Positions 8,086-27,887 of a stretch of 27,887 bases of DNA are shown here, piece by piece. The notes beneath the pieces are model-generated. The model ran no database searches. It saw only the letters and a list, made by a program, of their open reading frames with translations, and was not told where the DNA came from. The position numbers and the translations under genes were made by a program. Numbering within the stretch: position 1 is the stretch's first letter; the number at the start of each line of letters is the position of its first letter. Source of the DNA: a virus (taxonomy: Duplodnaviria; Heunggongvirae; Uroviricota; Caudoviricetes). The stretch is taken from the IMG/VR virus record IMGVR_UViG_2585427725_000003; one strand, given 5' to 3'.

Positions 8086-8160
8086 GGGTCAGTCGTATAA
8101 AGGTCATTACGGAAGGCTGTTAACCTTCTTATCGTGGTTCGAGTCCACGCTGTCCCGCCA
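8086..8160 (+). tRNA. tRNA-like gene, anticodon GTT (Asn), 75 nt, slightly non-canonical
   Basis: Hand-folded cloverleaf: acceptor GGGTCAG/CTGTCCC (one U-U mismatch), perfect anticodon stem GAAGG/CCTTC with loop CTGTTAA, T-arm CGTGG-TTCGAGT-CCACG, discriminator G plus CCA. D-stem only 3 bp. Confidence 0.55.
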
Positions 8161-8165
8161 AATAT

Positions 8166-8241
8166 GCTGGTTTAGCTCCAATGGTAGAGCGGTCGCCTTG
8201 TAAGCGAATGGGTAGCGGTTCAAGTCCGTTAACCAGCACCA
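8166..8241 (+). tRNA. tRNA-Thr (anticodon TGT), 76 nt
   Basis: Hand-folded: acceptor GCTGGTT/AACCAGC (7/7), D-arm GCTC-CAATGGTA-GAGC, anticodon loop CTTGTAA, T-arm AGCGG-TTCAAGT-CCGTT, discriminator A plus CCA. Confidence 0.75.
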
Positions 8242-8359: not shown

Positions 8360-8575
8360 ATGAAATCAATGGACAAAATCTCAACTGGCATTGCCTACGG
8401 AACATCCGCTGGTAGTGCGGGATACTGGTTTTTGCAGTGGTTGGATCAGGTCAGTCCATCACAGTGGGCTGCGATTGGGGTGCTTGGAAGCCTTGTGTTG
8501 GGCTTTCTCACCTATCTGACAAATCTGTACTTCAAAATCAGAGAAGACAGAAGAAAGGCTGCGAGAGGTGAATAA
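8360..8575 (+). CDS. S: Holin S, phage-21 pinholin type with dual start (Met1 antiholin / Met4 holin)
   Basis: GGCGGAGG then ATG at 8360: [71 protein letters not shown]. Second in-frame ATG at 8369. Matches S21 from memory. Confidence 0.88.
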
Positions 8576-9072
8576 TGCCTCCATCATTACGAAAAGCCGT
8601 TGCTGCGGCTATTGGTGGCGGGGCTATTGCTATAGCATCTGTGTTAATCACTGGCCCAAGTGGTAACGATGGTCTGGAAGGCGTCAGCTACATACCATAT
8701 AAAGATATCGTTGGTGTATGGACTGTATGTTACGGGCATACCGGAAAAGACATTATGCTCGGTAAAACGTATACCGAAGCAGAATGCAAAGCCCTCCTGA
8801 ATAAAGACCTTGCCACTGTCGCCAGACAAATTAACCCGTACATCAAAGTCGATATACCGGAAACAACGCGCGGCGCTCTTTACTCGTTCGTTTACAACGT
8901 TGGTGCTGGAAATTTCAGAACATCGACGCTTCTTCGCAAAATAAACCAGGGCGATATCAAAGGCGCATGTGATCAGCTACGGCGCTGGACATACGCTGGC
9001 GGTAAGCAATGGAAAGGGCTGATGACTCGCCGTGAGATTGAGCGTGAAGTCTGTTTGTGGGGGCAACAATGA
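8575..9072 (+). CDS. R: Endolysin R, SAR (signal-anchor-release) lysozyme of phage-21 type
   Basis: Track ORF, 165 aa, with Gly/Ala-rich weakly hydrophobic N-terminus ([20 protein letters not shown]) followed by a lysozyme-like domain. TAATG overlap with S. Confidence 0.88.
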
Positions 9073-9506
9073 GTAGAGTAACCGTGATTATCTCCGCTCT
9101 GGTTATCTGCATCATCGTCTGCCTGTCATGGGCTGTTAATCATTACCGTGATAACGCCATGACCTACAAAGAACAGCGCGATAAAGCCACATCCATCATC
9201 GCTGATATGCAGAAGCGTCAACGTGATGTAGCAGAACTCGACGCAAGATATACAAAGGAACTTGCTGATGCTAACGCGACTATCGAAAGTCTCCGTGCTG
9301 ATGTTTCTGCTGGGCGTAAGCGCCTGCAAGTCGCCGCCACCTGTGCAAAGTCAACGACCGGAGCCAGCAGCATGGGCGATGGAGAAAGCCCAAGACTTAC
9401 AGCAGATGCTGAACTCAATTATTACCGTCTCCGAAGTGGAATCGACAGGATAACCGCGCAGGTTAACTACTTGCAGGAATACATCAGGACGCAATGCCTT
9501 CGATGA
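9069..9506 (+). CDS. Rz: Rz (inner-membrane spanin)
   Basis: ATG at 9069 overlapping the R stop (ATGA): [26 protein letters not shown]..., N-terminal TM segment then coiled-coil-like region. Confidence 0.85.
9268..9453 (+). CDS. Rz1: Rz1 (outer-membrane lipoprotein spanin) embedded in the +1 frame of Rz
   Basis: ATG at 9268 after AAAGGAA: [36 protein letters not shown]..., lipobox LGVSAC and Pro-rich mature part, entirely inside Rz. Confidence 0.8.
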
Positions 9507-9948: not shown

Positions 9949-10380
9949 TTAGATTAAATTATTTCGATAAGCAGAATCGATTAGAGCGTTCATAAAGAGA
10001 TACTCAACATCTTCGGTATAGTCGATGTCTATTGGAGCTGTTGAGTCAAGCGCCCCAAAATGCATGCAATTGTTCCAATCAAGAAAAATTTTATGAAACT
10101 CCTGTTTTTTTCCATCTCGCGATGTGTAAAAAGTAATAACCCCAATTAATGAGCCTTCGTGAAGTGAAAGCTTACTTTCTGTAAAACACTTAAAGCGTAG
10201 CTGTGGAATTGAAACCTCAAGCTCTCCATCATTTAGCTCTATGGAAATTTGCTTATTAAGGTCTCGTTTGTTATTCCATGCGGTGTTAACACGTTCTAAT
10301 AAATCATTCGTATTTTGCTGTAATAACTCACCTTTCCTAGAAAGTAACTGTGACAATCCGATAAACGTTAATGAGCTCAT
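9949..10380 (-). CDS. Hypothetical protein (143 aa), antisense to the late operon between Rz and terminase (bor-like moron position)
   Basis: Minus-strand ATG at 10380 preceded by AAAGGTGA: MSSLTFIGLSQLLSRKGELLQQNTNDLLERVNTAWNNKRDLNKQISIELNDGELEVSIPQLRF... No motif I recognise. Noticeably AT-rich by eye. The track ORF extends to 10407 but that start lacks an RBS. Confidence 0.6.
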   Translation of the reverse strand: MSSLTFIGLSQLLSRKGELLQQNTNDLLERVNTAWNNKRDLNKQISIELNDGELEVSIPQLRFKCFTESKLSLHEGSLIGVITFYTSRDGKKQEFHKIFLDWNNCMHFGALDSTAPIDIDYTEDVEYLFMNALIDSAYRNNLI

Positions 10381-10400
10381 AAATTCACCTTTGAGAAAAA

Positions 10401-10952
10401 ATGGCACTCACAGACAAGCAAGAGATGTTCTGTCGCGAGTACCTCATCGATTTAAACGCCACGCAAGCGGCTATTCGGGCGGGGTACAGCGCAAAAACAG
10501 CCAACCGTACCGCATCCGAAAACCTGTCAAAACCTGACATCAAGTTAAGAATCGCCGAACTGAAAGCGCAACGCAATGATCTTGTTGGTATTAATGCAGA
10601 ATATGTACTTAATCGCCTTATTGAAATCGACCAGATGGATGTGCTTGACATTCTCCTGCAAAACGGTGAGCTAAAACCCATTAAAGACTGGCCTAAGGTA
10701 TGGCGCACAACGTTATCAGGAATGGATGTCGTGGAGATGGCATCCGCAGATAGCGCCGCACTTCTGAAGAAAATCAAATGGCCTGATAAGGTTAAAAACC
10801 TTGAGTTGCTCGGGCGTCATGTTTCTGTTCAGGCGTTTAAAGACAATGTCAAAAATGAAGTGACTGGTGCTGACGGAGGACCAGTCAGAACAGAAATTAC
10901 CAACTTAACGCCGGAGCAGGTTGCAGAAGCGTATAGAAAAATGATGGGCTAA
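10401..10952 (+). CDS. Terminase small subunit (P27-family-like)
   Basis: Track ORF, 183 aa, [34 protein letters not shown]..., a typical TerS N-terminus. Immediately precedes terL. Confidence 0.78.
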
Positions 10953-21523: not shown

Positions 21524-21711
21524 CGTTTAACAGCCTGCCGGACGGGCTGTCCTACCTTCTCAATCCGGTTGACGCCGGGTTAATTCCTTATACAGCACTT
21601 AAAGATGGCTCTGTCGATTTGTACGATATTGCTCTTTTGAATGACCATCTGGCGGTAAAAGCGGATAACCAGCGGCGCATTGAGAAATGGAGAGAGGATA
21701 ATGAACGCTGA
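21071..21711 (+). CDS. Tail assembly chaperone, -1 frameshift-extended form (G/GT-like)
   Basis: Slippery G_GGA_AAT at 21466..21472 (zero-frame codons GGA AAT), followed by TTTTTT. The -1 frame is open for about 80 codons (…FFAYTPYQHDAEPATGLTFNSLPDGLSY…RRIEKWREDNER) to TGA at 21709..21711, overlapping the tape-measure start. Confidence 0.6.
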
Positions 21712-23689
21712 AACTATTAAAGATTTCCTCGTCTCGCTTGGCTTCAGTGTGGATGATGCAGGAGCGAAAAAGTTCGGTTCTGTCCTCGCCGGTACAACTG
21801 CAAATGTCATCAAAATGGGGCTGGCCGTTGAAGGAGCCGCGCTGTCCGTGGTGGCCTTCACGGCTAAGATCGCCTCCGGTCTGGATAATCTTTACTGGGC
21901 GTCACAGCGCACTGGAGCGACAGTCCAGGGAATTCAGTCTATTGGCTATGCGGTTTCGCAGGTTGGCGGCAGCGTGGACGCTGCGCGATCTTCTCTGGAA
22001 AGCCTCTCCCGGTTTATTCGTAATAATCCCGGTGCAGAGGGATTTCTGAATCGCCTGGGGGTACAGACACGGGATGCCAGCGGTAACATGCGTGACATGG
22101 CCGCTATTTTTACAGGTGTAGGCCAGAAGCTCAGCGGCATGCCGTATTACCGGGCTAACCAGTATGCGCAGATGCTGGGCATTGACGAAAATACCCTTAT
22201 GGCGATGCGTCGGGGTGTGGGTGGTTTCTCCGGGCAGTACAGCGCAATGGCGAAAGCTATCGGCTTCAATGCTGACGAGGCGGCCAGAAGCTCCAACAAA
22301 TTTATGACCTCCCTGCGTGAGTTTAGCGCGATGGCAGGCATGGCCCGTGACAAAATCGGCTCTAATCTTGCGGGTGGGCTTGCGGGTTCGCTGGACCCCC
22401 TGCGCCGCCATATCCTGGACAACTTCCCTCGTATCGAGCTGACCCTGACGAAAGCCATAAAAGGCATTCTGGCGCTCGGGGATATTATCGGGCGGCTGTT
22501 CTTCAGACTGATTGAAGGAACATCAGGTCTCATCACCTGGTGGCAATCGCTGGATAAGCAAACGCGGCAGTTGATCTCGCTGTTTGGCGCACTGACGATT
22601 GCGCTGCGCATTCTGAACAGTACGTTCTGGATGTCGCCGATTGGCCTTATTACTGCGCTGGCGGCGGGGATTGCCCTTCTGTGGGAGGACTATCAGACCT
22701 GGAAGGAAGGCGGCGACAGCCTGATTGACTGGGGCAAGTGGAAACCGGAGGTCGATGCCGCGTTGAAGATGGTTCGTGACCTTAAAACAACCGTTAACGA
22801 CCTGGCGAAAGCGCTGGCGAAACTGCTCAATATTGACCCCAAATCATGGTCCCTGAAGTGGGATTTCAGCAACTTCATCGACCAGATGGGCGAATTCAGC
22901 AAAATGCTGAACATGATCGCCGACCTGCTCAACGCTATCAAAGATGGCCGCTGGGCTGATGCCGTCAGCATCAGCAAACAGATACTTAATCAGGGCAGCG
23001 AAAATCCGTCAGCGATGCCGATGGTTACAGACAGCGCTAACAGTACTGCCGACTGGATTAAAGAGCACTGGGGATTCGATCCTCGCAGCGTGGGCCGGAC
23101 GGTACGCGGCTGGTTTGGTGATGATGAGCCGGAACAATATGCACAGGCTACGAAACGAGGAGAACGGAATAACAATCCGGGAAACCTTAATTTTGCTGGT
23201 CAGGCAGGGGCTTCTCTTGAACGCCCGGGCGGGCGATTTGCCAGATTTGAAACTGCTTTTGATGGATTACGGGCTCTTGCTCGTCAGTTAATGCTGTACG
23301 CCGGACGGGGAATAAACAGTGTGGAGAAAATTATCTCTACCTGGGCACCTGCGTCTGATAATAACAACACAACTGCGTATATCAGGGCTGTATCGCAACG
23401 ACTGGGAGTGGATCCCCGGGCTGCCCTGAATATGAGCGATCCGCAAACCATGTCAGCATTGATGAGCAGCATTATCCAGCATGAAAATGGAAGAAATATC
23501 TATTCCCGAGAGCTGATTAATAAGGCTGCCGTGGCAGGAATTAGTGGCAAAGTGACAGAGGTTAACCAGCAAAATACCTACCACATTTACGGTGGCGGAG
23601 ATCCGCACGCTGTCGGTAATGAGGTTGCACGTCGGCAACAGTCTGCAAATGCTCAGGTCATGCGAAGTAATCAGGTGAGGGTGGGTTAG
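21701..23689 (+). CDS. Tail tape measure protein
   Basis: ATG at 21701 after GGAGAGAGGA (track start 21680 is TTG). 662 aa, Ala/Gly-rich with internal hydrophobic segments; largest gene of the tail block. Confidence 0.8.
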   Translation: MNAETIKDFLVSLGFSVDDAGAKKFGSVLAGTTANVIKMGLAVEGAALSVVAFTAKIASGLDNLYWASQRTGATVQGIQSIGYAVSQVGGSVDAARSSLESLSRFIRNNPGAEGFLNRLGVQTRDASGNMRDMAAIFTGVGQKLSGMPYYRANQYAQMLGIDENTLMAMRRGVGGFSGQYSAMAKAIGFNADEAARSSNKFMTSLREFSAMAGMARDKIGSNLAGGLAGSLDPLRRHILDNFPRIELTLTKAIKGILALGDIIGRLFFRLIEGTSGLITWWQSLDKQTRQLISLFGALTIALRILNSTFWMSPIGLITALAAGIALLWEDYQTWKEGGDSLIDWGKWKPEVDAALKMVRDLKTTVNDLAKALAKLLNIDPKSWSLKWDFSNFIDQMGEFSKMLNMIADLLNAIKDGRWADAVSISKQILNQGSENPSAMPMVTDSANSTADWIKEHWGFDPRSVGRTVRGWFGDDEPEQYAQATKRGERNNNPGNLNFAGQAGASLERPGGRFARFETAFDGLRALARQLMLYAGRGINSVEKIISTWAPASDNNNTTAYIRAVSQRLGVDPRAALNMSDPQTMSALMSSIIQHENGRNIYSRELINKAAVAGISGKVTEVNQQNTYHIYGGGDPHAVGNEVARRQQSANAQVMRSNQVRVG

Positions 23690-24276
23690 TGGATATTCTC
23701 TCTACACTTTTTCATCAGCAGAGCAGAAAAATAGGAATGATTGTTCCCAGTGTTGTTATTTCAGAGAAGCATACAGATATGCTTGAAATAACAGAGCATC
23801 CGGTAGAGGTCGGGGCTGCTGTCGCTGATCATGCCTATAAAAAACCGTCAGAAGTGGTGATGGAGGTTGGTTTCGCCGGTGGCGGCGCATTGCTGGATTT
23901 TGCCAGTAACCTGACGGCTACCAGCCTGCTCGGCCTGAGTCCTCAGCAGACGTATCAGGAGCTACTGGATCTGCAGGAAAGCCGTATCCCCTTCGATGTG
24001 GTAACCGGTAAACGGCTGTACAGCAACATGTTGATCCGGGCGCTGGAAGTGACGACGGACAAGACAACCGAAAACGTCCTGTCCGCCGTCCTCACCCTGA
24101 GGGAGGTCCTTATCTCCCGGACACAGCAGATCACCGTCGCTGATAAAACCAACATGAAGGAAGGGGCCAGCACGTCGGCGGTACAGAACAGCGGCAACAA
24201 AACCACAAAGCCTCCAGATACTTCACTGCTGAAAAGCATCACGGGTAACGTGGTGTCATTACTGGGAGGCGGATAA
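23689..24276 (+). CDS. Tail / baseplate assembly protein (unknown)
   Basis: Track ORF, 195 aa, GTG start overlapping the TMP stop. Confidence 0.45.
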   Translation: MDILSTLFHQQSRKIGMIVPSVVISEKHTDMLEITEHPVEVGAAVADHAYKKPSEVVMEVGFAGGGALLDFASNLTATSLLGLSPQQTYQELLDLQESRIPFDVVTGKRLYSNMLIRALEVTTDKTTENVLSAVLTLREVLISRTQQITVADKTNMKEGASTSAVQNSGNKTTKPPDTSLLKSITGNVVSLLGGG

Positions 24277-24578
24277 TGACAATTCAGGAAATTCCGCTGA
24301 CAGCGGACAACCAGCAGTTCAGCATCGTCCTGGGTGGTGTCACCTGGCGGATTAGCATCATATGGCGCGATCCTTACTGGATTATGGACCTGCAGAACGA
24401 CAGAGGGGAGCCGGTAATCTCCGGTATACCTCTCGTCACTGGCGCTGACCTGCTGGCGCAGTACGCCTGTATGGGACTTGGTTTTAAGCTGTTGGTGGTC
24501 TGCGATGACAACACACAGGATTATCCCACGAAAACTGACCTGGGCGGGCGCAGTCATTTACTGGTATCAACGGAGTAA
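24276..24578 (+). CDS. Small tail / baseplate protein (unknown)
   Basis: Track ORF, 100 aa, TAATG-coupled to the previous gene. Confidence 0.45.
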   Translation: MTIQEIPLTADNQQFSIVLGGVTWRISIIWRDPYWIMDLQNDRGEPVISGIPLVTGADLLAQYACMGLGFKLLVVCDDNTQDYPTKTDLGGRSHLLVSTE

Positions 24579-24580
24579 GC

Positions 24581-25648
24581 ATGACACAGAACTGGATGAG
24601 ACATTTCGAGCTGCAGCTTGTGGACGGGAACGGTCAGGGAATTGAGCTAAGTGATTTCAAAGTCACCTTTACGATCGACTGGTTCAACATCAGCAGCGCG
24701 TCCCGGGTAGGGACTATCAAAATTTATAACCTCTCGGCAGATACTGTGAACCGAATTACCGGGCAGGAGTTTTCGAAAGTGCGTCTGATTGCGGGTTACG
24801 ACGGTATCGCGCCGGAGGTGTCGGCAAGCGATGTCGGGACCGTGCGGGAGGTTGATGCGGCGGACGTGGGCCAGAGTGATGGCCGCAACTACGGACTGAT
24901 TTTCAGCGGTGAAATTCGCTACTCGGTCACAGGAAAAGACAGCCCGGTTGATTCCTACGTCCTGATTCAGGCAGCCGATACAGATCTGGCTTTTGCCACC
25001 AGTATAACCTCACAGACGCTGGCTGCCGGTTACACGGTCGCTGATGTGAACCGTGCGCTGATGAAAGACTTCGAAGCCAAAGGTGCGACCGAAGGCCTGA
25101 CGCCTGAAATGCCTGCTACTGTATTCCCCCGGGGGCGGGTACTCTTTGGCATGACGCGGCATCTTATGGATAATGTAGCCGGGCAATGTGGCGCAACATG
25201 GCAATTCGTGGATGGTCAACGCCAGATGGTGGCGAATAATGAATATGTTCACGAAGCGATTGTGCTCAACAGCGCTACCGGGCTTATTGGCATGCCGCAG
25301 CAGACTATCGGTAACGGCGTAAACGTCCGCGCGCTTATTAATCCGAACATCCGGGTTAACGGGCTCATTCAACTGGATCAGGCTTCAGTGTATCGTACCG
25401 CGTTGTCGAACAACGATATCGCGATGGCCGGTGGGCAGATCACCGACCAGAACACGGACGGAAATATTACGCTAAGCGGCACCACATCGCAGCCTGCCAG
25501 CATCGCAACGGATGGCGTTTATATTGTGCGTGGGATTATGTACACTGGCGACACAAGGGGGCAGGCGTGGTACATGGATATGATGTGTGAAGCACGTGGC
25601 GCGGCTGATCTACTTTCGTCCTCAGCGCAGCAAAGGATTTATTCATGA
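24581..25648 (+). CDS. Putative baseplate hub / tail protein
   Basis: Track ORF, 355 aa, directly after the preceding tail genes. Function by position and size only. Confidence 0.45.
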   Translation: MTQNWMRHFELQLVDGNGQGIELSDFKVTFTIDWFNISSASRVGTIKIYNLSADTVNRITGQEFSKVRLIAGYDGIAPEVSASDVGTVREVDAADVGQSDGRNYGLIFSGEIRYSVTGKDSPVDSYVLIQAADTDLAFATSITSQTLAAGYTVADVNRALMKDFEAKGATEGLTPEMPATVFPRGRVLFGMTRHLMDNVAGQCGATWQFVDGQRQMVANNEYVHEAIVLNSATGLIGMPQQTIGNGVNVRALINPNIRVNGLIQLDQASVYRTALSNNDIAMAGGQITDQNTDGNITLSGTTSQPASIATDGVYIVRGIMYTGDTRGQAWYMDMMCEARGAADLLSSSAQQRIYS

Positions 25649-25992
25649 AGCGTATGAAGTTAGTTTTGACAATTTCGTTATTATTTTCTTGTTCAGCAGC
25701 TTTTGCTGATTTGCAATGCGGCGGATATCTACTTCATGCAGCTGATAACGGTTGGACAAAAATCAACGGTGAGCAGGTAACATCACAGAAGATTACGTTT
25801 CTTGGTAAGAAAGATGACTGGGACAACGTTAAAACTAACATGGGCCTGATGCCTTCTCGCGATGGCAACAATTACGGCTTTGAGTTTGTGAAGCGTAACG
25901 GAAAAGCTTTCCTGAACGTCCAGCTTCTGCAGAACAGCATGGATGCGCCTAAAATCATCGGATCATTCCCTTGTAAAAAGGCGTTACGCTAA
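25645..25992 (+). CDS. Secreted or lipoprotein-like small protein (115 aa), low-GC moron appended to the tail operon
   Basis: ATGA overlap with the upstream gene stop. MKRMKLVLTISLLFSCSAAFADLQCGG...: N-terminal signal peptide (possible lipobox LFSC or SPase I site AFA/D), two further Cys. Visibly AT-richer than the tail genes. Confidence 0.6.
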   Translation: MKRMKLVLTISLLFSCSAAFADLQCGGYLLHAADNGWTKINGEQVTSQKITFLGKKDDWDNVKTNMGLMPSRDGNNYGFEFVKRNGKAFLNVQLLQNSMDAPKIIGSFPCKKALR

Positions 25993-26029
25993 AGTTTGAT
26001 GTCAATCTTCCGAGATGAGCGCTTTAAGG

Positions 26030-26058
26030 TTGACGAGATATTGTTCAAAGTTCACAAT
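26030..26058 (+). promoter_or_regulatory. Candidate sigma70 promoter for the two-gene cargo module
   Basis: TTGACG (26030..26035), 17-bp spacer, CACAAT (26053..26058), about 30 nt upstream of the ATG at 26088. Confidence 0.35.
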
Positions 26059-26087
26059 CACAATCCCTTTAGTAAGAGAAATAATCC

Positions 26088-26861
26088 ATGGCGGCAGGCA
26101 TCCCATTAGAAAAAGCGCAAAAATATATTGAACAATTCAATGCGCTTCTATTGGATAGGGAAAGTTTAGATCCCTTCACTGAAAAGAAAATTCGAGAGGA
26201 ACTTTCTGTCTCTCCAACGCCTGCTACCAACATTGCACTATCTTATCTGGATGCAATAACCGGAAAGATTGAAAGCGCGTTACGTTATCTCAGGATAAGC
26301 CTAGAAGTAAACGATGTAACGTTGGCAATGCACTATCATCACATTTTAATTAATACATTTAGCTATAATGAACTCAAGGATGTCTATGTCCCGCTGGCAA
26401 AGAAGTATCGGACAAAACTCTTTAGTCACAACGCATACAGTTGGGCGTACCGTTGCGGCGAGCGTGAACAGTTAAAATTTTATATGGAAGAGCACATTAA
26501 GCTTCTTTCTGAATCAGAAGGCAGGAGTAATGCTATGAAGCACAAAGAAGAACTCCTTGCAGAAATGGATAATTTCTATAGCGCCACACAGTGCTCGAAG
26601 GAACAGTTCCAGACCTTAGCATCCATAATCTGGGGCTTGCTAAGTGAATACAAGGCTACGACAGGTTTCGTTCAGCTTAGTGGAAGCGGTTGCTATGTTG
26701 TTGATATTAAAAATCTTGAGCCTAAAACTATTGCCAAAATGAACTTCGACTTGGCTGATAGAGTCTGCGCTGAATCTAAACTGGATGATTGTTCCCTGTT
26801 AGCTAGATTTACCTCTCCGCGTCAGTTGCATACGGGGGTGAGCTACCATGTCGGTAACTAG
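26088..26861 (+). CDS. Hypothetical protein (257 aa), first gene of an AT-rich two-gene module
   Basis: Track ORF. No recognisable motif; specifically no GS...DxD nucleotidyltransferase signature. Its last codons overlap the start of the next ORF by 14 nt. Confidence 0.6.
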   Translation: MAAGIPLEKAQKYIEQFNALLLDRESLDPFTEKKIREELSVSPTPATNIALSYLDAITGKIESALRYLRISLEVNDVTLAMHYHHILINTFSYNELKDVYVPLAKKYRTKLFSHNAYSWAYRCGEREQLKFYMEEHIKLLSESEGRSNAMKHKEELLAEMDNFYSATQCSKEQFQTLASIIWGLLSEYKATTGFVQLSGSGCYVVDIKNLEPKTIAKMNFDLADRVCAESKLDDCSLLARFTSPRQLHTGVSYHVGN

Positions 26862-27129
26862 CAATCAGATTCTCGATACCGCTCGATTATGTCTGTCTGA
26901 AAATATTGAGAGTGGATTTCGAAGCGCTATCTCAAGGGCGTATTACAGTATGTTACATGAGTCTATTAGCTCACTTACTGCCATACCGCATTTTACCCAT
27001 GAGCATCACAAAAATACTGTGGGTTATATGTCAACGCCCTCAGAGTGCAAATCAGAGCCATACCCGACAAATACACTGAAATCCCTAGCTTTCGTACTTC
27101 GCCAGTGGCGGGATGCTAGAAATGAATAG
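26848..27129 (+). pseudogene. HEPN-like protein gene, 3' end interrupted by IS2
   Basis: ATG at 26848 after GGGGGTGA. MSVTSNQILDTARLCLSENIESGFRSAISRAYYSMLHESISSL... contains S-R-AYYSML-H (R-x6-H), resembling the conserved HEPN helix motif as I recall it. The reading frame ends at TAG 27127..27129, which is the first three bases of the IS2 terminal repeat. Confidence 0.5.
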
Positions 27130-27217
27130 ACTGGCCCCCTGAATCTCCAGACAACCAATATCACTTAAATAAGTGATAGTCTTAATACTAGTTTTTAGAC
27201 TAGTCATTGGAGAACAG

Positions 27218-27583
27218 ATGATTGATGTCTTAGGGCCGGAGAAACGCAGACGGCGTACCACACAGGAAAAGATCGCAATTGTTCAGCAGAGCTTTGAACC
27301 GGGGATGACGGTCTCCCTCGTTGCCCGGCAACATGGTGTAGCAGCCAGCCAGTTATTTCTCTGGCGTAAGCAATACCAGGAAGGAAGTCTTACTGCTGTC
27401 GCCGCCGGAGAACAGGTTGTTCCTGCCTCTGAACTTGCTGCCGCCATGAAGCAGATTAAAGAACTCCAGCGCCTGCTCGGCAAGAAAACGATGGAAAATG
27501 AACTCCTCAAAGAAGCCGTTGAATATGGACGGGCAAAAAAGTGGATAGCGCACGCGCCCTTATTGCCCGGGGATGGGGAGTAA
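27218..27583 (+). CDS. insC: IS2 transposase OrfA (InsC)
   Basis: ATG at 27218: [56 protein letters not shown]... (helix-turn-helix), 121 aa. The track start at 27173 is a GTG inside the inverted repeat. Confidence 0.9.
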
Positions 27584-27887
27584 GCTTAGTCAGCCGTTGT
27601 CTCCGGGTGTCGCGTGCGCAGTTGCACGTCATTCTCAGACGAACCGATGACTGGATGGATGGCCGCCGCAGTCGTCACACTGATGATACGGATGTGCTTC
27701 TCCGTATACACCATGTTATCGGAGAGCTGCCCACGTATGGTTATCGTCGGGTATGGGCGCTGCTTCGCAGACAGGCAGAACTTGATGGTATGCCTGCGAT
27801 CAATGCCAAACGTGTTTACCGGATCATGCGCCAGAATGCGCTGTTGCTTGAGCGAAAACCTGCTGTACCGCCATCGAAACGGGCACA
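27541..27887 (+). CDS. insD: IS2 transposase OrfB (InsD) frame, partial; expressed as OrfAB by -1 frameshift at A6G
   Basis: Slippery A_AAA_AAG at 27535..27541 near the end of insC. The -1 frame is open from there to the window end (…[66 protein letters not shown]…). Confidence 0.8.

What the first reader, a model, noticed from the sequence alone, without database searches (positions are those of the whole stretch)
25645..25992. Signal-peptide protein gene fused onto the end of the tail operon (ATGA overlap); possible Cor-like exclusion lipoprotein
Seen in sequence: a 115-aa ORF starts on the stop codon of the preceding 355-aa tail gene. The product has a classic N-terminal signal peptide (MKRMKLVLTISLLFSCSAAFA...) with a possible lipobox Cys. 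GC content by eye is well below the structural genes. Established knowledge: several lambdoid phages carry small outer-membrane lipoproteins near tail genes (for example Cor, which blocks receptor-dependent superinfection). Inference: an envelope-targeted moron co-expressed with tail genes.
Basis: partly seen in the sequence, partly recalled or inferred. Interest (0 to 1): 0.5.

Follow-up and report, generated by a model that had tools for sequence, protein, structure and literature searches.

The report
Secreted beta-barrel protein behind baseplate hub
The ORF is a real, conserved prophage gene for a small protein exported to the periplasm and made together with the tail baseplate hub; it is not a Cor-type lipoprotein, it is not at the end of the tail operon, and its function is still unknown (most likely an envelope-protecting binding or inhibitor protein).

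Summary
The 115-aa ORF (25645-25992) is real. Its ATG overlaps the TGA of the 355-aa baseplate hub gene, it has a Sec signal peptide, and its GC is 42.5% against 54% for the hub. Two parts of the reading fail. The gene is not at the operon's end: an IS2 at about 27127 cuts the module, and intact relatives continue with spike, wedge and fibre genes. The "lipobox" Cys16 is not conserved (strict lipobox in 2 of 129 relatives). A small-x-small signal-peptidase I site (128 of 129) and two invariant cysteines are conserved. The product is a roughly 94-residue periplasmic eight-stranded beta-barrel (AlphaFold pLDDT above 90 in the mature part), in PHROG 3443, with no Pfam, NCBIfam or PADLOC match. 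In 84 SEN34-like prophages and phages it always follows the hub, with start/stop overlap in 80. It lies just before a variable cargo slot, is under strong purifying selection (dN/dS 0.07), and is exchanged independently of the structural proteins. Sister phages lack it, and Erwiniaceae carry stand-alone chromosomal homologues. No sequence link to Cor, MliC/PliC or Spackle was found. The best guess, at low confidence, is a self-sufficient periplasmic inhibitor or binding protein that shields the envelope.

The parts
24581..25648 (+). Baseplate hub gene (355 aa). Its TGA stop overlaps the start codon of the gene under study.
   Evidence: phrog_196 'baseplate hub' at E=2e-88 and a weak PF22759 E217_GP41 match. 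It has the same position in 84 loci.
25633..25637 (+). Shine-Dalgarno-like AAGGA, 7 nt before the ATG and inside the hub coding sequence.
   Evidence: Read directly from the sequence.
25645..25707 (+). Signal peptide (21 codons): n-region MKRMK, hydrophobic core LVLTISLLF, and an AFA|D signal-peptidase I site. It contains the non-conserved Cys16 (25690-25692).
   Evidence: Across the family, 129 of 129 members have a hydrophobic core, 125 of 129 have K/R at the N-terminus, and 128 of 129 have a small-x-small site 1-7 residues before the conserved Cys. A strict lipobox occurs in only 2 of 129.
25708..25992 (+). Mature periplasmic domain (94 aa plus stop): an eight-stranded beta-barrel with invariant Cys25 (25717-25719) and Cys110 (25972-25974) on the first and last strands.
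   Evidence: AlphaFold2 model mb980c8685e18, with pLDDT of 90-94 over residues 21-90. Invariant columns in alignments A1 and A2. dN/dS of 0.05.
26030..26085 (+). Two promoter-like sites in the 95-nt spacer after the gene. They probably start the neighbouring moron and are not part of the gene under study.
   Evidence: The number of sites found is not above chance for the region, so this is only suggestive.
26088..26861 (+). First moron gene (257 aa, phrog_17809, function unknown).
   Evidence: It is present in only some related loci.
26848..27129 (+). Second moron gene, truncated at codon 93 of 131 by the IS2.
   Evidence: Alignment with the intact prophage L001 15249..15644. In L001 the gene is followed by the terminator AAACCCGCTTCGGCGGGTTTTTT just before the spike gene.
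27127..27887 (+). Left end of an IS2-type IS3-family element. The first transposase ORF is listed at 27173-27583, and the window ends inside the element.
   Evidence: HTH_Tnp_1 at E=2e-19. Homology to the intact prophage stops at window 27126.

Best explanation
SHOWN. The gene encodes a Sec-exported protein of about 94 residues after cleavage by signal peptidase I. The predicted fold is a small eight-stranded beta-barrel, with invariant cysteines on the first and last strands that would form a disulfide in the periplasm. It belongs to an uncharacterised family (PHROG 3443). That family is a fixed accessory gene of SEN34-like temperate myophages of Enterobacterales. The gene lies immediately after the baseplate hub gene and its start overlaps the hub stop. 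It marks the left edge of a variable hub-spike cargo slot. It is dispensable for the virion, it is exchanged as a cassette independently of the structural proteins, and it has stand-alone chromosomal homologues in Pantoea, Erwinia and Mixta. INFERRED. It is made from the Q-dependent late transcript and acts on its own in the periplasm as a binding or inhibitor protein. MOST LIKELY MECHANISM (about 30%). It shields the cell envelope against a muralytic or penetrating activity that arrives from outside. The most probable target is the tail tip or tail-borne lytic transglycosylase of superinfecting or re-adsorbing phages. This is the logic of T4 Spackle, carried out by an unrelated fold resembling the MliC/PliC/PhiA class of inhibitors.
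Confidence: 0.4

Rival explanations
1. Lysogenic-conversion lysozyme inhibitor. The protein would be a PliC/MliC-like periplasmic protein that protects the bacterium from animal, insect or plant-associated lysozymes rather than from phages.
For: The barrel size and fold class are those of PliC and PhiA. One member is named 'C-type lysozyme inhibitor domain-containing protein' in UniRef. There are stand-alone single-gene chromosomal homologues in host-associated Erwiniaceae. There is no co-variation with any phage protein, as expected if the target is conserved and not of phage origin.
Against: There is no MliC Pfam hit even at E<=10. hhalign gives 6.9% and hmmsearch E above 0.3 in both directions. 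The SxSGAxY loop seen in the MliC and PliC alignments is absent. There is no evidence of expression during lysogeny.
Confidence: 0.15
2. Cor/Llp-like exclusion. The protein would be an outer-membrane lipoprotein that inactivates the phage's own receptor from the periplasmic side.
For: This allele has a lax lipobox (LLFSC). It is a tail-module gene of a temperate phage. A relative fused to a genuine lipoprotein domain occupies the same slot. T5 Llp shows that such a mechanism exists (PMC9586334).
Against: Cys16 is not conserved, even among alleles more than 90% identical (C/S/G). A strict lipobox occurs in 2 of 129 members, whereas a signal-peptidase I site occurs in 128 of 129. There is no similarity to any PHROG, Pfam or PADLOC exclusion family. 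Alleles are uncorrelated with the fibre or its C-terminal part (r 0.07-0.20, partial about 0).
Confidence: 0.08
3. A ligand-binding or host-physiology modulator. The barrel would be an avidin- or lipocalin-like protein that binds a small molecule or a host periplasmic protein, for example an envelope-stress sensor, for a purpose unrelated to phage exclusion.
Against: A 94-aa barrel is smaller than avidins and lipocalins and probably has no cavity (inference). Nothing points to a particular ligand. Its position in a phage defence and cargo slot favours a phage-related role.
Confidence: 0.15
4. A baseplate structural component or assembly factor.
For: The gene has a constant position and is translationally coupled to the hub in 80 of 84 loci. 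It is under strong purifying selection.
Against: A Sec signal peptide and a periplasmic-type Cys pair do not fit cytoplasmic virion assembly. The gene is absent from sister phages with the same baseplate gene set. It is decoupled from the co-evolving structural block. Stand-alone chromosomal homologues exist.
Confidence: 0.03

Closest known systems
T4 Spackle (gp61.3), a periplasmic inhibitor of the tail-spike lysozyme gp5 (PMC7677548, PMC7650644)
   Same: Both are small phage-encoded proteins of about 100 aa, exported with a signal peptide and acting alone in the periplasm. The proposed logic is also the same: neutralising the muralytic tip of an incoming tail.
   Different: Spackle is helical, an early gene and unrelated in sequence. 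Here the fold is a beta-barrel and the gene is coupled to a late baseplate gene of a temperate phage. Inhibition of any lysin is untested, and alleles do not co-vary with the tape-measure transglycosylase domain.
MliC/PliC/PhiA periplasmic inhibitors of lysozymes and peptidoglycan hydrolases (PF09864; PDB 2f09, 3f6z, 4mir, 7dpy)
Cor (phi80/N15/T1) and T5 Llp receptor-blocking lipoproteins (PMC9586334)
   Same: They are envelope-targeted accessory proteins encoded among or near phage tail genes.
   Different: Those are lipoproteins matched to one receptor (FhuA). This family is predicted to be soluble and cleaved by signal peptidase I. It has no homology to them, lies between the hub and spike genes of a myophage, and its alleles are uncorrelated with the fibre.
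Tail-operon morons such as lambda lom/bor and HK97 gp15 (PMC3594210)
   Same: The gene has lower GC than the flanking structural genes, is non-structural, sits inside the late tail region and is absent from sister lineages.
   Different: It has no promoter or terminator of its own and its start overlaps the hub stop codon. It is constant across the enterobacterial lineage rather than sporadic. The real moron slot begins after it.
PHROG 3443 (function unknown)
   Same: The match is full length (residues 1-112 of a 115-position profile, E=1e-53), so this is the family the gene belongs to.
   Different: The PHROG carries no functional information.

Membership tests
PHROG 3443 (uncharacterised phage protein family) | Full-length profile match | tested here: met
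   E=1.1e-53, residues 1-112 against profile positions 1-112 of 115.
Cor / Llp receptor-blocking lipoproteins | Sequence homology to a Cor or Llp family | tested here: not met
   The only hit in PHROGs is 3443. There were no hits in Pfam, NCBIfam or PADLOC.
Cor / Llp receptor-blocking lipoproteins | Lipoprotein signal peptide with a conserved lipobox Cys | tested here: not met
   The window allele fits only the lax pattern. A strict lipobox is found in 2 of 129 members. Cys16 varies (C/S/G) among close alleles, whereas a signal-peptidase I site is present in 128 of 129. LipoP and SignalP could not be run.
Cor / Llp receptor-blocking lipoproteins | Specificity matched to the phage's own receptor-binding protein | tested here: not met
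   The correlation of allele distances with the fibre is 0.20 and with the fibre C-terminal part 0.07. The partial correlation given the hub is about 0.
Cor / Llp receptor-blocking lipoproteins | Blocks adsorption or DNA entry of receptor-dependent phages | not testable with these tools
   Needs expression in a naive host and a panel of phages.
MliC/PliC lysozyme inhibitors (PF09864) | Pfam or profile match | tested here: not met
   None of 21 members hit PF09864 at E<=10. hhalign of A2 against A3 gives 6.9% probability. hmmsearch --max in both directions gives E above 0.3. The profile has no PDB sequence hits at E<=10.
MliC/PliC lysozyme inhibitors (PF09864) | Conserved SxSGAxY lysozyme-binding loop | tested here: not met
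   The loop is visible in the MliC and PliC alignments. It has no counterpart in A1 or A2.
MliC/PliC lysozyme inhibitors (PF09864) | Small eight-stranded periplasmic beta-barrel | tested here: met
MliC/PliC lysozyme inhibitors (PF09864) | Inhibits lysozyme | not testable with these tools
   Needs an enzyme assay.
T4 Spackle-type tail-lysin inhibitors | Homology or helical fold of Spackle | tested here: not met
   There is no PHROG or Pfam hit other than 3443, and the model is all-beta.
T4 Spackle-type tail-lysin inhibitors | Periplasmic location through a cleavable signal peptide | tested here: met
   This is a sequence-based prediction only.
T4 Spackle-type tail-lysin inhibitors | Binds and inhibits the tail-associated muralytic domain | not testable with these tools
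The co-variation test with the tape-measure C-terminal domain was negative.
Moron (independent transcription unit inside a late operon) | Own promoter and terminator | tested here: not met
   The start codon overlaps the hub stop in 80 of 84 loci. No terminator-like site was found in 24500-27300, and no promoter-like site lies close upstream.
Moron (independent transcription unit inside a late operon) | Base composition unlike the flanking genes, and patchy distribution | tested here: inconclusive
   GC is lower than the hub in 81 of 84 loci, by a mean of 9 points. The gene is absent from sister lineages but constant within the enterobacterial lineage.

The most novel reading that the evidence does not exclude
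The family is a new, fold-distinct class of periplasmic inhibitor or 'immunity' proteins. It would neutralise the muralytic or membrane-penetrating tip of contractile phage tails, or a lysozyme type for which no inhibitor is known. It would be carried as a fixed passenger of the baseplate module and repeatedly domesticated by Erwiniaceae chromosomes.
Probability: 0.2. Interest if true: 0.6.

Novelty: new member of a known kind. Interest (0 to 1): 0.33.

Why it matters
If the protein does block envelope penetration or a muralytic enzyme, it would add a new protein family to the short list of periplasmic superinfection-exclusion or lysozyme-inhibitor proteins. About 6% of complete E. coli genomes carry a DNA-level relative, as do many Klebsiella, Salmonella and Yersinia prophages, so it could affect phage-therapy host ranges. 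Whatever the function, the analysis defines the hub-spike junction of SEN34-like prophages as a cargo hotspot with a conserved secreted 'anchor' gene. That makes it a convenient place to look for new defence genes. If the function proves mundane, the finding is an ordinary hypothetical secreted prophage protein.

Tried and rejected
1. MliC/PliC membership. A UniRef name and the fold pointed this way. It was rejected at the sequence level by a Pfam scan at E<=10, hhalign, and hmmsearch in both directions.
2. Specific partnership with the tape-measure transglycosylase domain, the spike or the fibre. Mantel and partial-correlation tests over 43-60 loci gave no signal.
3. Complex prediction.
5. 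Defence databases. PADLOC had no hit for this gene, its fusion relative, or the two neighbouring moron genes.
6. Lysis role (spanin or antiholin). Rejected because a complete holin, SAR-endolysin and Rz/Rz1 cassette lies elsewhere in the window.
7. Outer-membrane Lom/Ail-type barrel. Rejected by inspection: the protein is too small, its strands are short and hydrophilic, and there is no Pfam hit.
8. Hub-gene fusion by -1 frameshift. No X XXY YYZ heptamer is present in the last codons of the hub gene (read), and four loci have the gene separated by 2-5 nt.
9. Own promoter inside the hub gene's 3' end. No consensus site was found. Synonymous diversity does drop in the last 50 or so hub codons, but this could equally mark a recombination junction.
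10. Collection scans. The genome-contig scans for distant members and an alignment-based scan failed or gave spurious hits.
11. Literature. The SEN34 paper and searches on superinfection exclusion gave nothing on this family.

Full report
**What is at the coordinates**

The ORF 25645..25992 (+) encodes 115 aa. Its ATG (25645-25647) overlaps the TGA (25646-25648) of the preceding 355-aa gene. An AAGGA lies 7 nt upstream. The product starts MKRMKLVLTISLLFSCSAAFA|DLQCGG, which is a basic n-region, a hydrophobic core and an A-x-A site. GC is 0.425 for this gene against 0.540 for the upstream gene. GC stays at 0.40-0.45 until an insertion sequence begins.

**What the surroundings are**

The window is a lambda-like-regulated temperate myophage of the SEN34 (Brunovirus) type. 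It contains:
- a CI-like repressor, O/P replication genes, NinB/NinG and a Q antiterminator;
- two tRNA genes;
- a holin, SAR endolysin and Rz/Rz1;
- terminase, head, sheath and tube genes;
- a tape measure with a C-terminal transglycosylase-like region;
- a Dit-like protein, a Pam3_gp18-like plug and a baseplate hub.

The 355-aa gene is the hub (phrog_196, E=2e-88), not a terminal tail gene. An E. coli chromosome (strain 357900) carries the same prophage at 100% identity over window 23600-27126. There the order continues: hub, the 115-aa gene, a 257-aa gene, a 131-aa gene, a terminator, spike, sheath-initiator-like protein, baseplate J, wedge and fibre.

In the window, homology stops at 27126, where the inverted repeat and first transposase ORF of an IS2-type element begin. 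The element cuts the 131-aa gene at codon 93. So "the end of the tail operon" is an artefact of the IS insertion.

**The gene is real and belongs to a defined family**

It matches PHROG 3443 (function unknown) end to end at E=1e-53. It has no Pfam, NCBIfam or PADLOC match. A search of 5.8 billion proteins found 404 clusters, all from Enterobacterales. A full HMM search of 1.84 billion representatives found only 65 clusters at the 50% identity level, so the family is narrow. Among 65 distinct gene sequences the median dN/dS is 0.07, and 0.05 for the mature part.

**Export signal: signal peptidase I, not lipoprotein**

The counts below are for 129 full-length relatives.

| Feature | Members |
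|---|---|
| Hydrophobic core | 129 |
| K/R near the N-terminus | 125 |
| Small-x-small site 1-7 residues before the first conserved Cys | 128 (94 of them exactly 3 residues before) |
| Strict lipobox | 2 |
| Lax PROSITE lipobox pattern | 11 |

The window's LFSC fits only the lax pattern. Cys16 is S or G in close alleles and is missing from the second large allele class, MKRFCLALVMMVTAPAMA|AIQCG. In contrast, Cys25 and Cys110 are invariant across the whole family. I read this as a soluble periplasmic protein with one disulfide. The probability that this particular allele is lipidated is about 15%. SignalP and LipoP could not be run.

**Fold**

AlphaFold2 with a 21-sequence alignment gives mean pLDDT 84, and 90-94 over residues 21-90. 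The model has eight strands after the signal helix, and the two cysteines lie on the first and last strands.

- Foldseek against PDB and BFVD finds nothing significant.
- One member is called "C-type lysozyme inhibitor domain-containing protein" in UniRef, so I tested this lead. No member hits Pfam MliC at E<=10. hhalign against an MliC/PliC alignment gives 6.9%. hmmsearch in both directions gives E above 0.3. The SxSGAxY loop is absent.

The resemblance to MliC/PliC is therefore one of fold class, size and end-to-end cysteines. It is not family membership.

**Position and coupling**

I collected 84 loci: 80 IMG/VR contigs, three isolated phages and the E. coli prophage.

- In every locus the gene directly follows the hub.
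- In 80 of 84 its start codon overlaps the hub stop: 49 with ATGA and 31 with a one-base overlap.
- GC is below that of the hub in 81 of 84 loci, by a mean of 9 points.
- The spike gene follows after 22 to 1392 bp, median 955. The variable cargo slot therefore begins after this gene.
- Members only about 40% identical, and a 292-aa version fused to an N-terminal lipoprotein domain, occupy the same position.
- No promoter-like site lies just upstream, and no terminator-like site was found in 24500-27300.

The gene is thus part of the Q-dependent late transcript and is translationally coupled to the hub. The neighbouring 257-aa + 131-aa pair looks like a classic moron. It has promoter-like sites in the 95-nt spacer and a textbook terminator in the intact prophage.

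**It is not a baseplate part**

- In Providencia PSTCR3, Bordetella IFTN9, Acinetobacter Ab105-1phi and Ralstonia PY059YO380 the hub gene is followed directly by the spike gene.
- Hafnia phage yong1, whose hub is 77% identical, has an unrelated non-secreted protein in this place.
- Pairwise distances of the structural proteins (tape-measure N-terminal part, Dit, plug, hub, sheath initiator, J) correlate at 0.85-0.97 with each other. This protein correlates at only 0.27-0.69 with them.
- Many loci combine a 97-99% identical hub with a 68% identical copy of this protein, so it is swapped as a cassette.

**Search for a partner**

After controlling for the hub, its allele distances show no correlation with the tape-measure C-terminal domain, the spike, the fibre or the fibre's C-terminal 150 residues (partial r from -0.12 to 0.07). 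This argues against a receptor-matched Cor/Llp-type function. It also gives no support to a lock-and-key relation with the phage's own tail lysin. It is compatible with a conserved target.

**Stand-alone homologues**

A profile of the most distant members finds a subgroup in Pantoea, Erwinia and Mixta. These are single chromosomal genes:
- next to fliE in two Pantoea species;
- between two LysR genes in Erwinia;
- between yciY and yciI in Mixta, where the gene is followed by its own terminator.

A related E. coli member again sits behind a prophage hub, as do the Edwardsiella and Photorhabdus copies. The protein therefore works without any phage partner encoded beside it, and it is worth keeping for a bacterium.

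**The slot downstream**

Cargo ORFs from the 84 loci cluster into 37 families. They include:
- a recurrent small protein (26 loci) paired with variable 243-266-aa partners;
- a YafO toxin pair;
- a T5orf172/MUG113 protein;
- a reverse transcriptase;
- several secreted or membrane proteins;
- one probable diverged paralogue of the gene under study (hhalign 89%).

**Interpretation**

Shown: the gene is real and its product is predicted to be a periplasmic disulfide-stapled beta-barrel. It is non-structural, specific to this phage lineage and coupled to the hub. It is exchanged independently, under purifying selection, and self-sufficient.

Inferred: it is expressed late, and it is an inhibitor or binder rather than an enzyme.

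My preferred mechanism (about 30%) is that it shields the envelope against an incoming muralytic or penetrating activity, most plausibly phage tail tips. This follows the logic of T4 Spackle (PMC7677548).

Rivals are a PliC-like inhibitor of animal lysozymes (15%), a ligand- or host-protein binder (15%), a Cor/Llp-like receptor blocker (8%) and a structural role (3%). The remainder is "something else".

The main weaknesses are that expression in lysogens is unproven, no similarity to any characterised inhibitor was found, and the co-variation tests were negative.

**Verdict**

The Cor-like lipoprotein interpretation is not supported. The finding is an uncharacterised but clearly functional secreted accessory protein, of modest interest until tested.

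Noticed in passing
window 27127-27887: An IS2-type element (IS3 family; first transposase ORF listed at 27173-27583) is inserted inside the tail module. It truncates a 131-aa gene at codon 93 and separates the hub from the spike, wedge and fibre genes, which lie beyond the window. The prophage may be defective for tail assembly.
   Followed up: partly
window 26088-27129; L001 14489-15700: A two-gene moron (257 aa, phrog_17809, plus 131 aa, phrog_5176). It has promoter-like sites upstream and, in the intact prophage, a textbook terminator just before the spike gene. Relatives of the small protein occur in 26 loci, paired with different 243-266-aa partners. This looks like a modular two-component system of unknown function, with no Pfam or PADLOC hit.
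   Followed up: partly
L005-L084, L112-L114 (region between the studied gene and the spike gene): The hub-spike junction of SEN34-like prophages is a cargo hotspot of 22-1392 bp. It holds 37 ORF families, including a YafO toxin pair, T5orf172/MUG113, a reverse transcriptase, a secreted tRNA_anti-like OB-fold protein and several membrane proteins.
   Followed up: partly
L052 10363-10731: A second secreted 122-aa protein directly downstream of the studied gene looks like a diverged paralogue of it (hhalign probability 89%, E=2e-6). It has a signal peptide, KCGD near the N-terminus and a Cys near the C-terminus.
   Followed up: partly
L100 8001-8879 (protein P0134): A 292-aa variant occupies the same slot. 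It has an N-terminal lipoprotein domain of about 195 aa (lipobox LSGC) with no Pfam match, fused to the beta-barrel domain.
   Followed up: partly
L115/L122 6001-6402, L117 6001-6369, L121 6001-6357: Stand-alone chromosomal homologues are found in Pantoea (next to fliE), Erwinia (between LysR genes) and Mixta (between yciY and yciI, with its own terminator). They suggest gene flow between phage and chromosome, in an unknown direction.
   Followed up: partly
L087 6299-6622; L086 4463-4936; L003 6358-6780: Related phages carry other, non-homologous signal-peptide or membrane-anchored small proteins around the hub gene: a 107-aa protein in EKP1, a 157-aa protein between plug and hub in Providencia PSTCR3, and a homologue of the EKP1 protein downstream in SEN34. 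Envelope-targeted passengers seem to recur in this module.
   Followed up: no
window 24581-25648 (last 50 or so codons, about 25500-25645): Synonymous-site diversity of the hub gene across 56 distinct sequences falls to 0.12-0.24 in the last 50 or so codons, against a gene mean of 0.28. This could be an embedded regulatory element or a recombination junction for exchange of the cassette.
   Followed up: no
window 8086-8241: tRNA-Asn (GTT) and tRNA-Thr (TGT) genes lie between the Q antiterminator gene and the holin gene.
   Followed up: no
window 8360-9506: A complete lysis cassette: a 71-aa holin, an endolysin with an N-terminal signal-anchor-release-type hydrophobic segment, Rz, and an embedded Rz1 lipoprotein ORF (9262-9453).
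   Followed up: partly
window 21680-23689 (residues about 450-660): The tape measure protein carries a C-terminal region that matches phage transglycosylase and endolysin PHROGs. It is annotated as lytic transglycosylase in related records. This C-terminal part is much more variable between loci (mean distance 0.46) than the rest of the module.
   Followed up: partly
window 9949-10407 (- strand): A 152-aa ORF lies on the opposite strand between the lysis genes and the small terminase gene. It may be another accessory gene and was not analysed.
   Followed up: no
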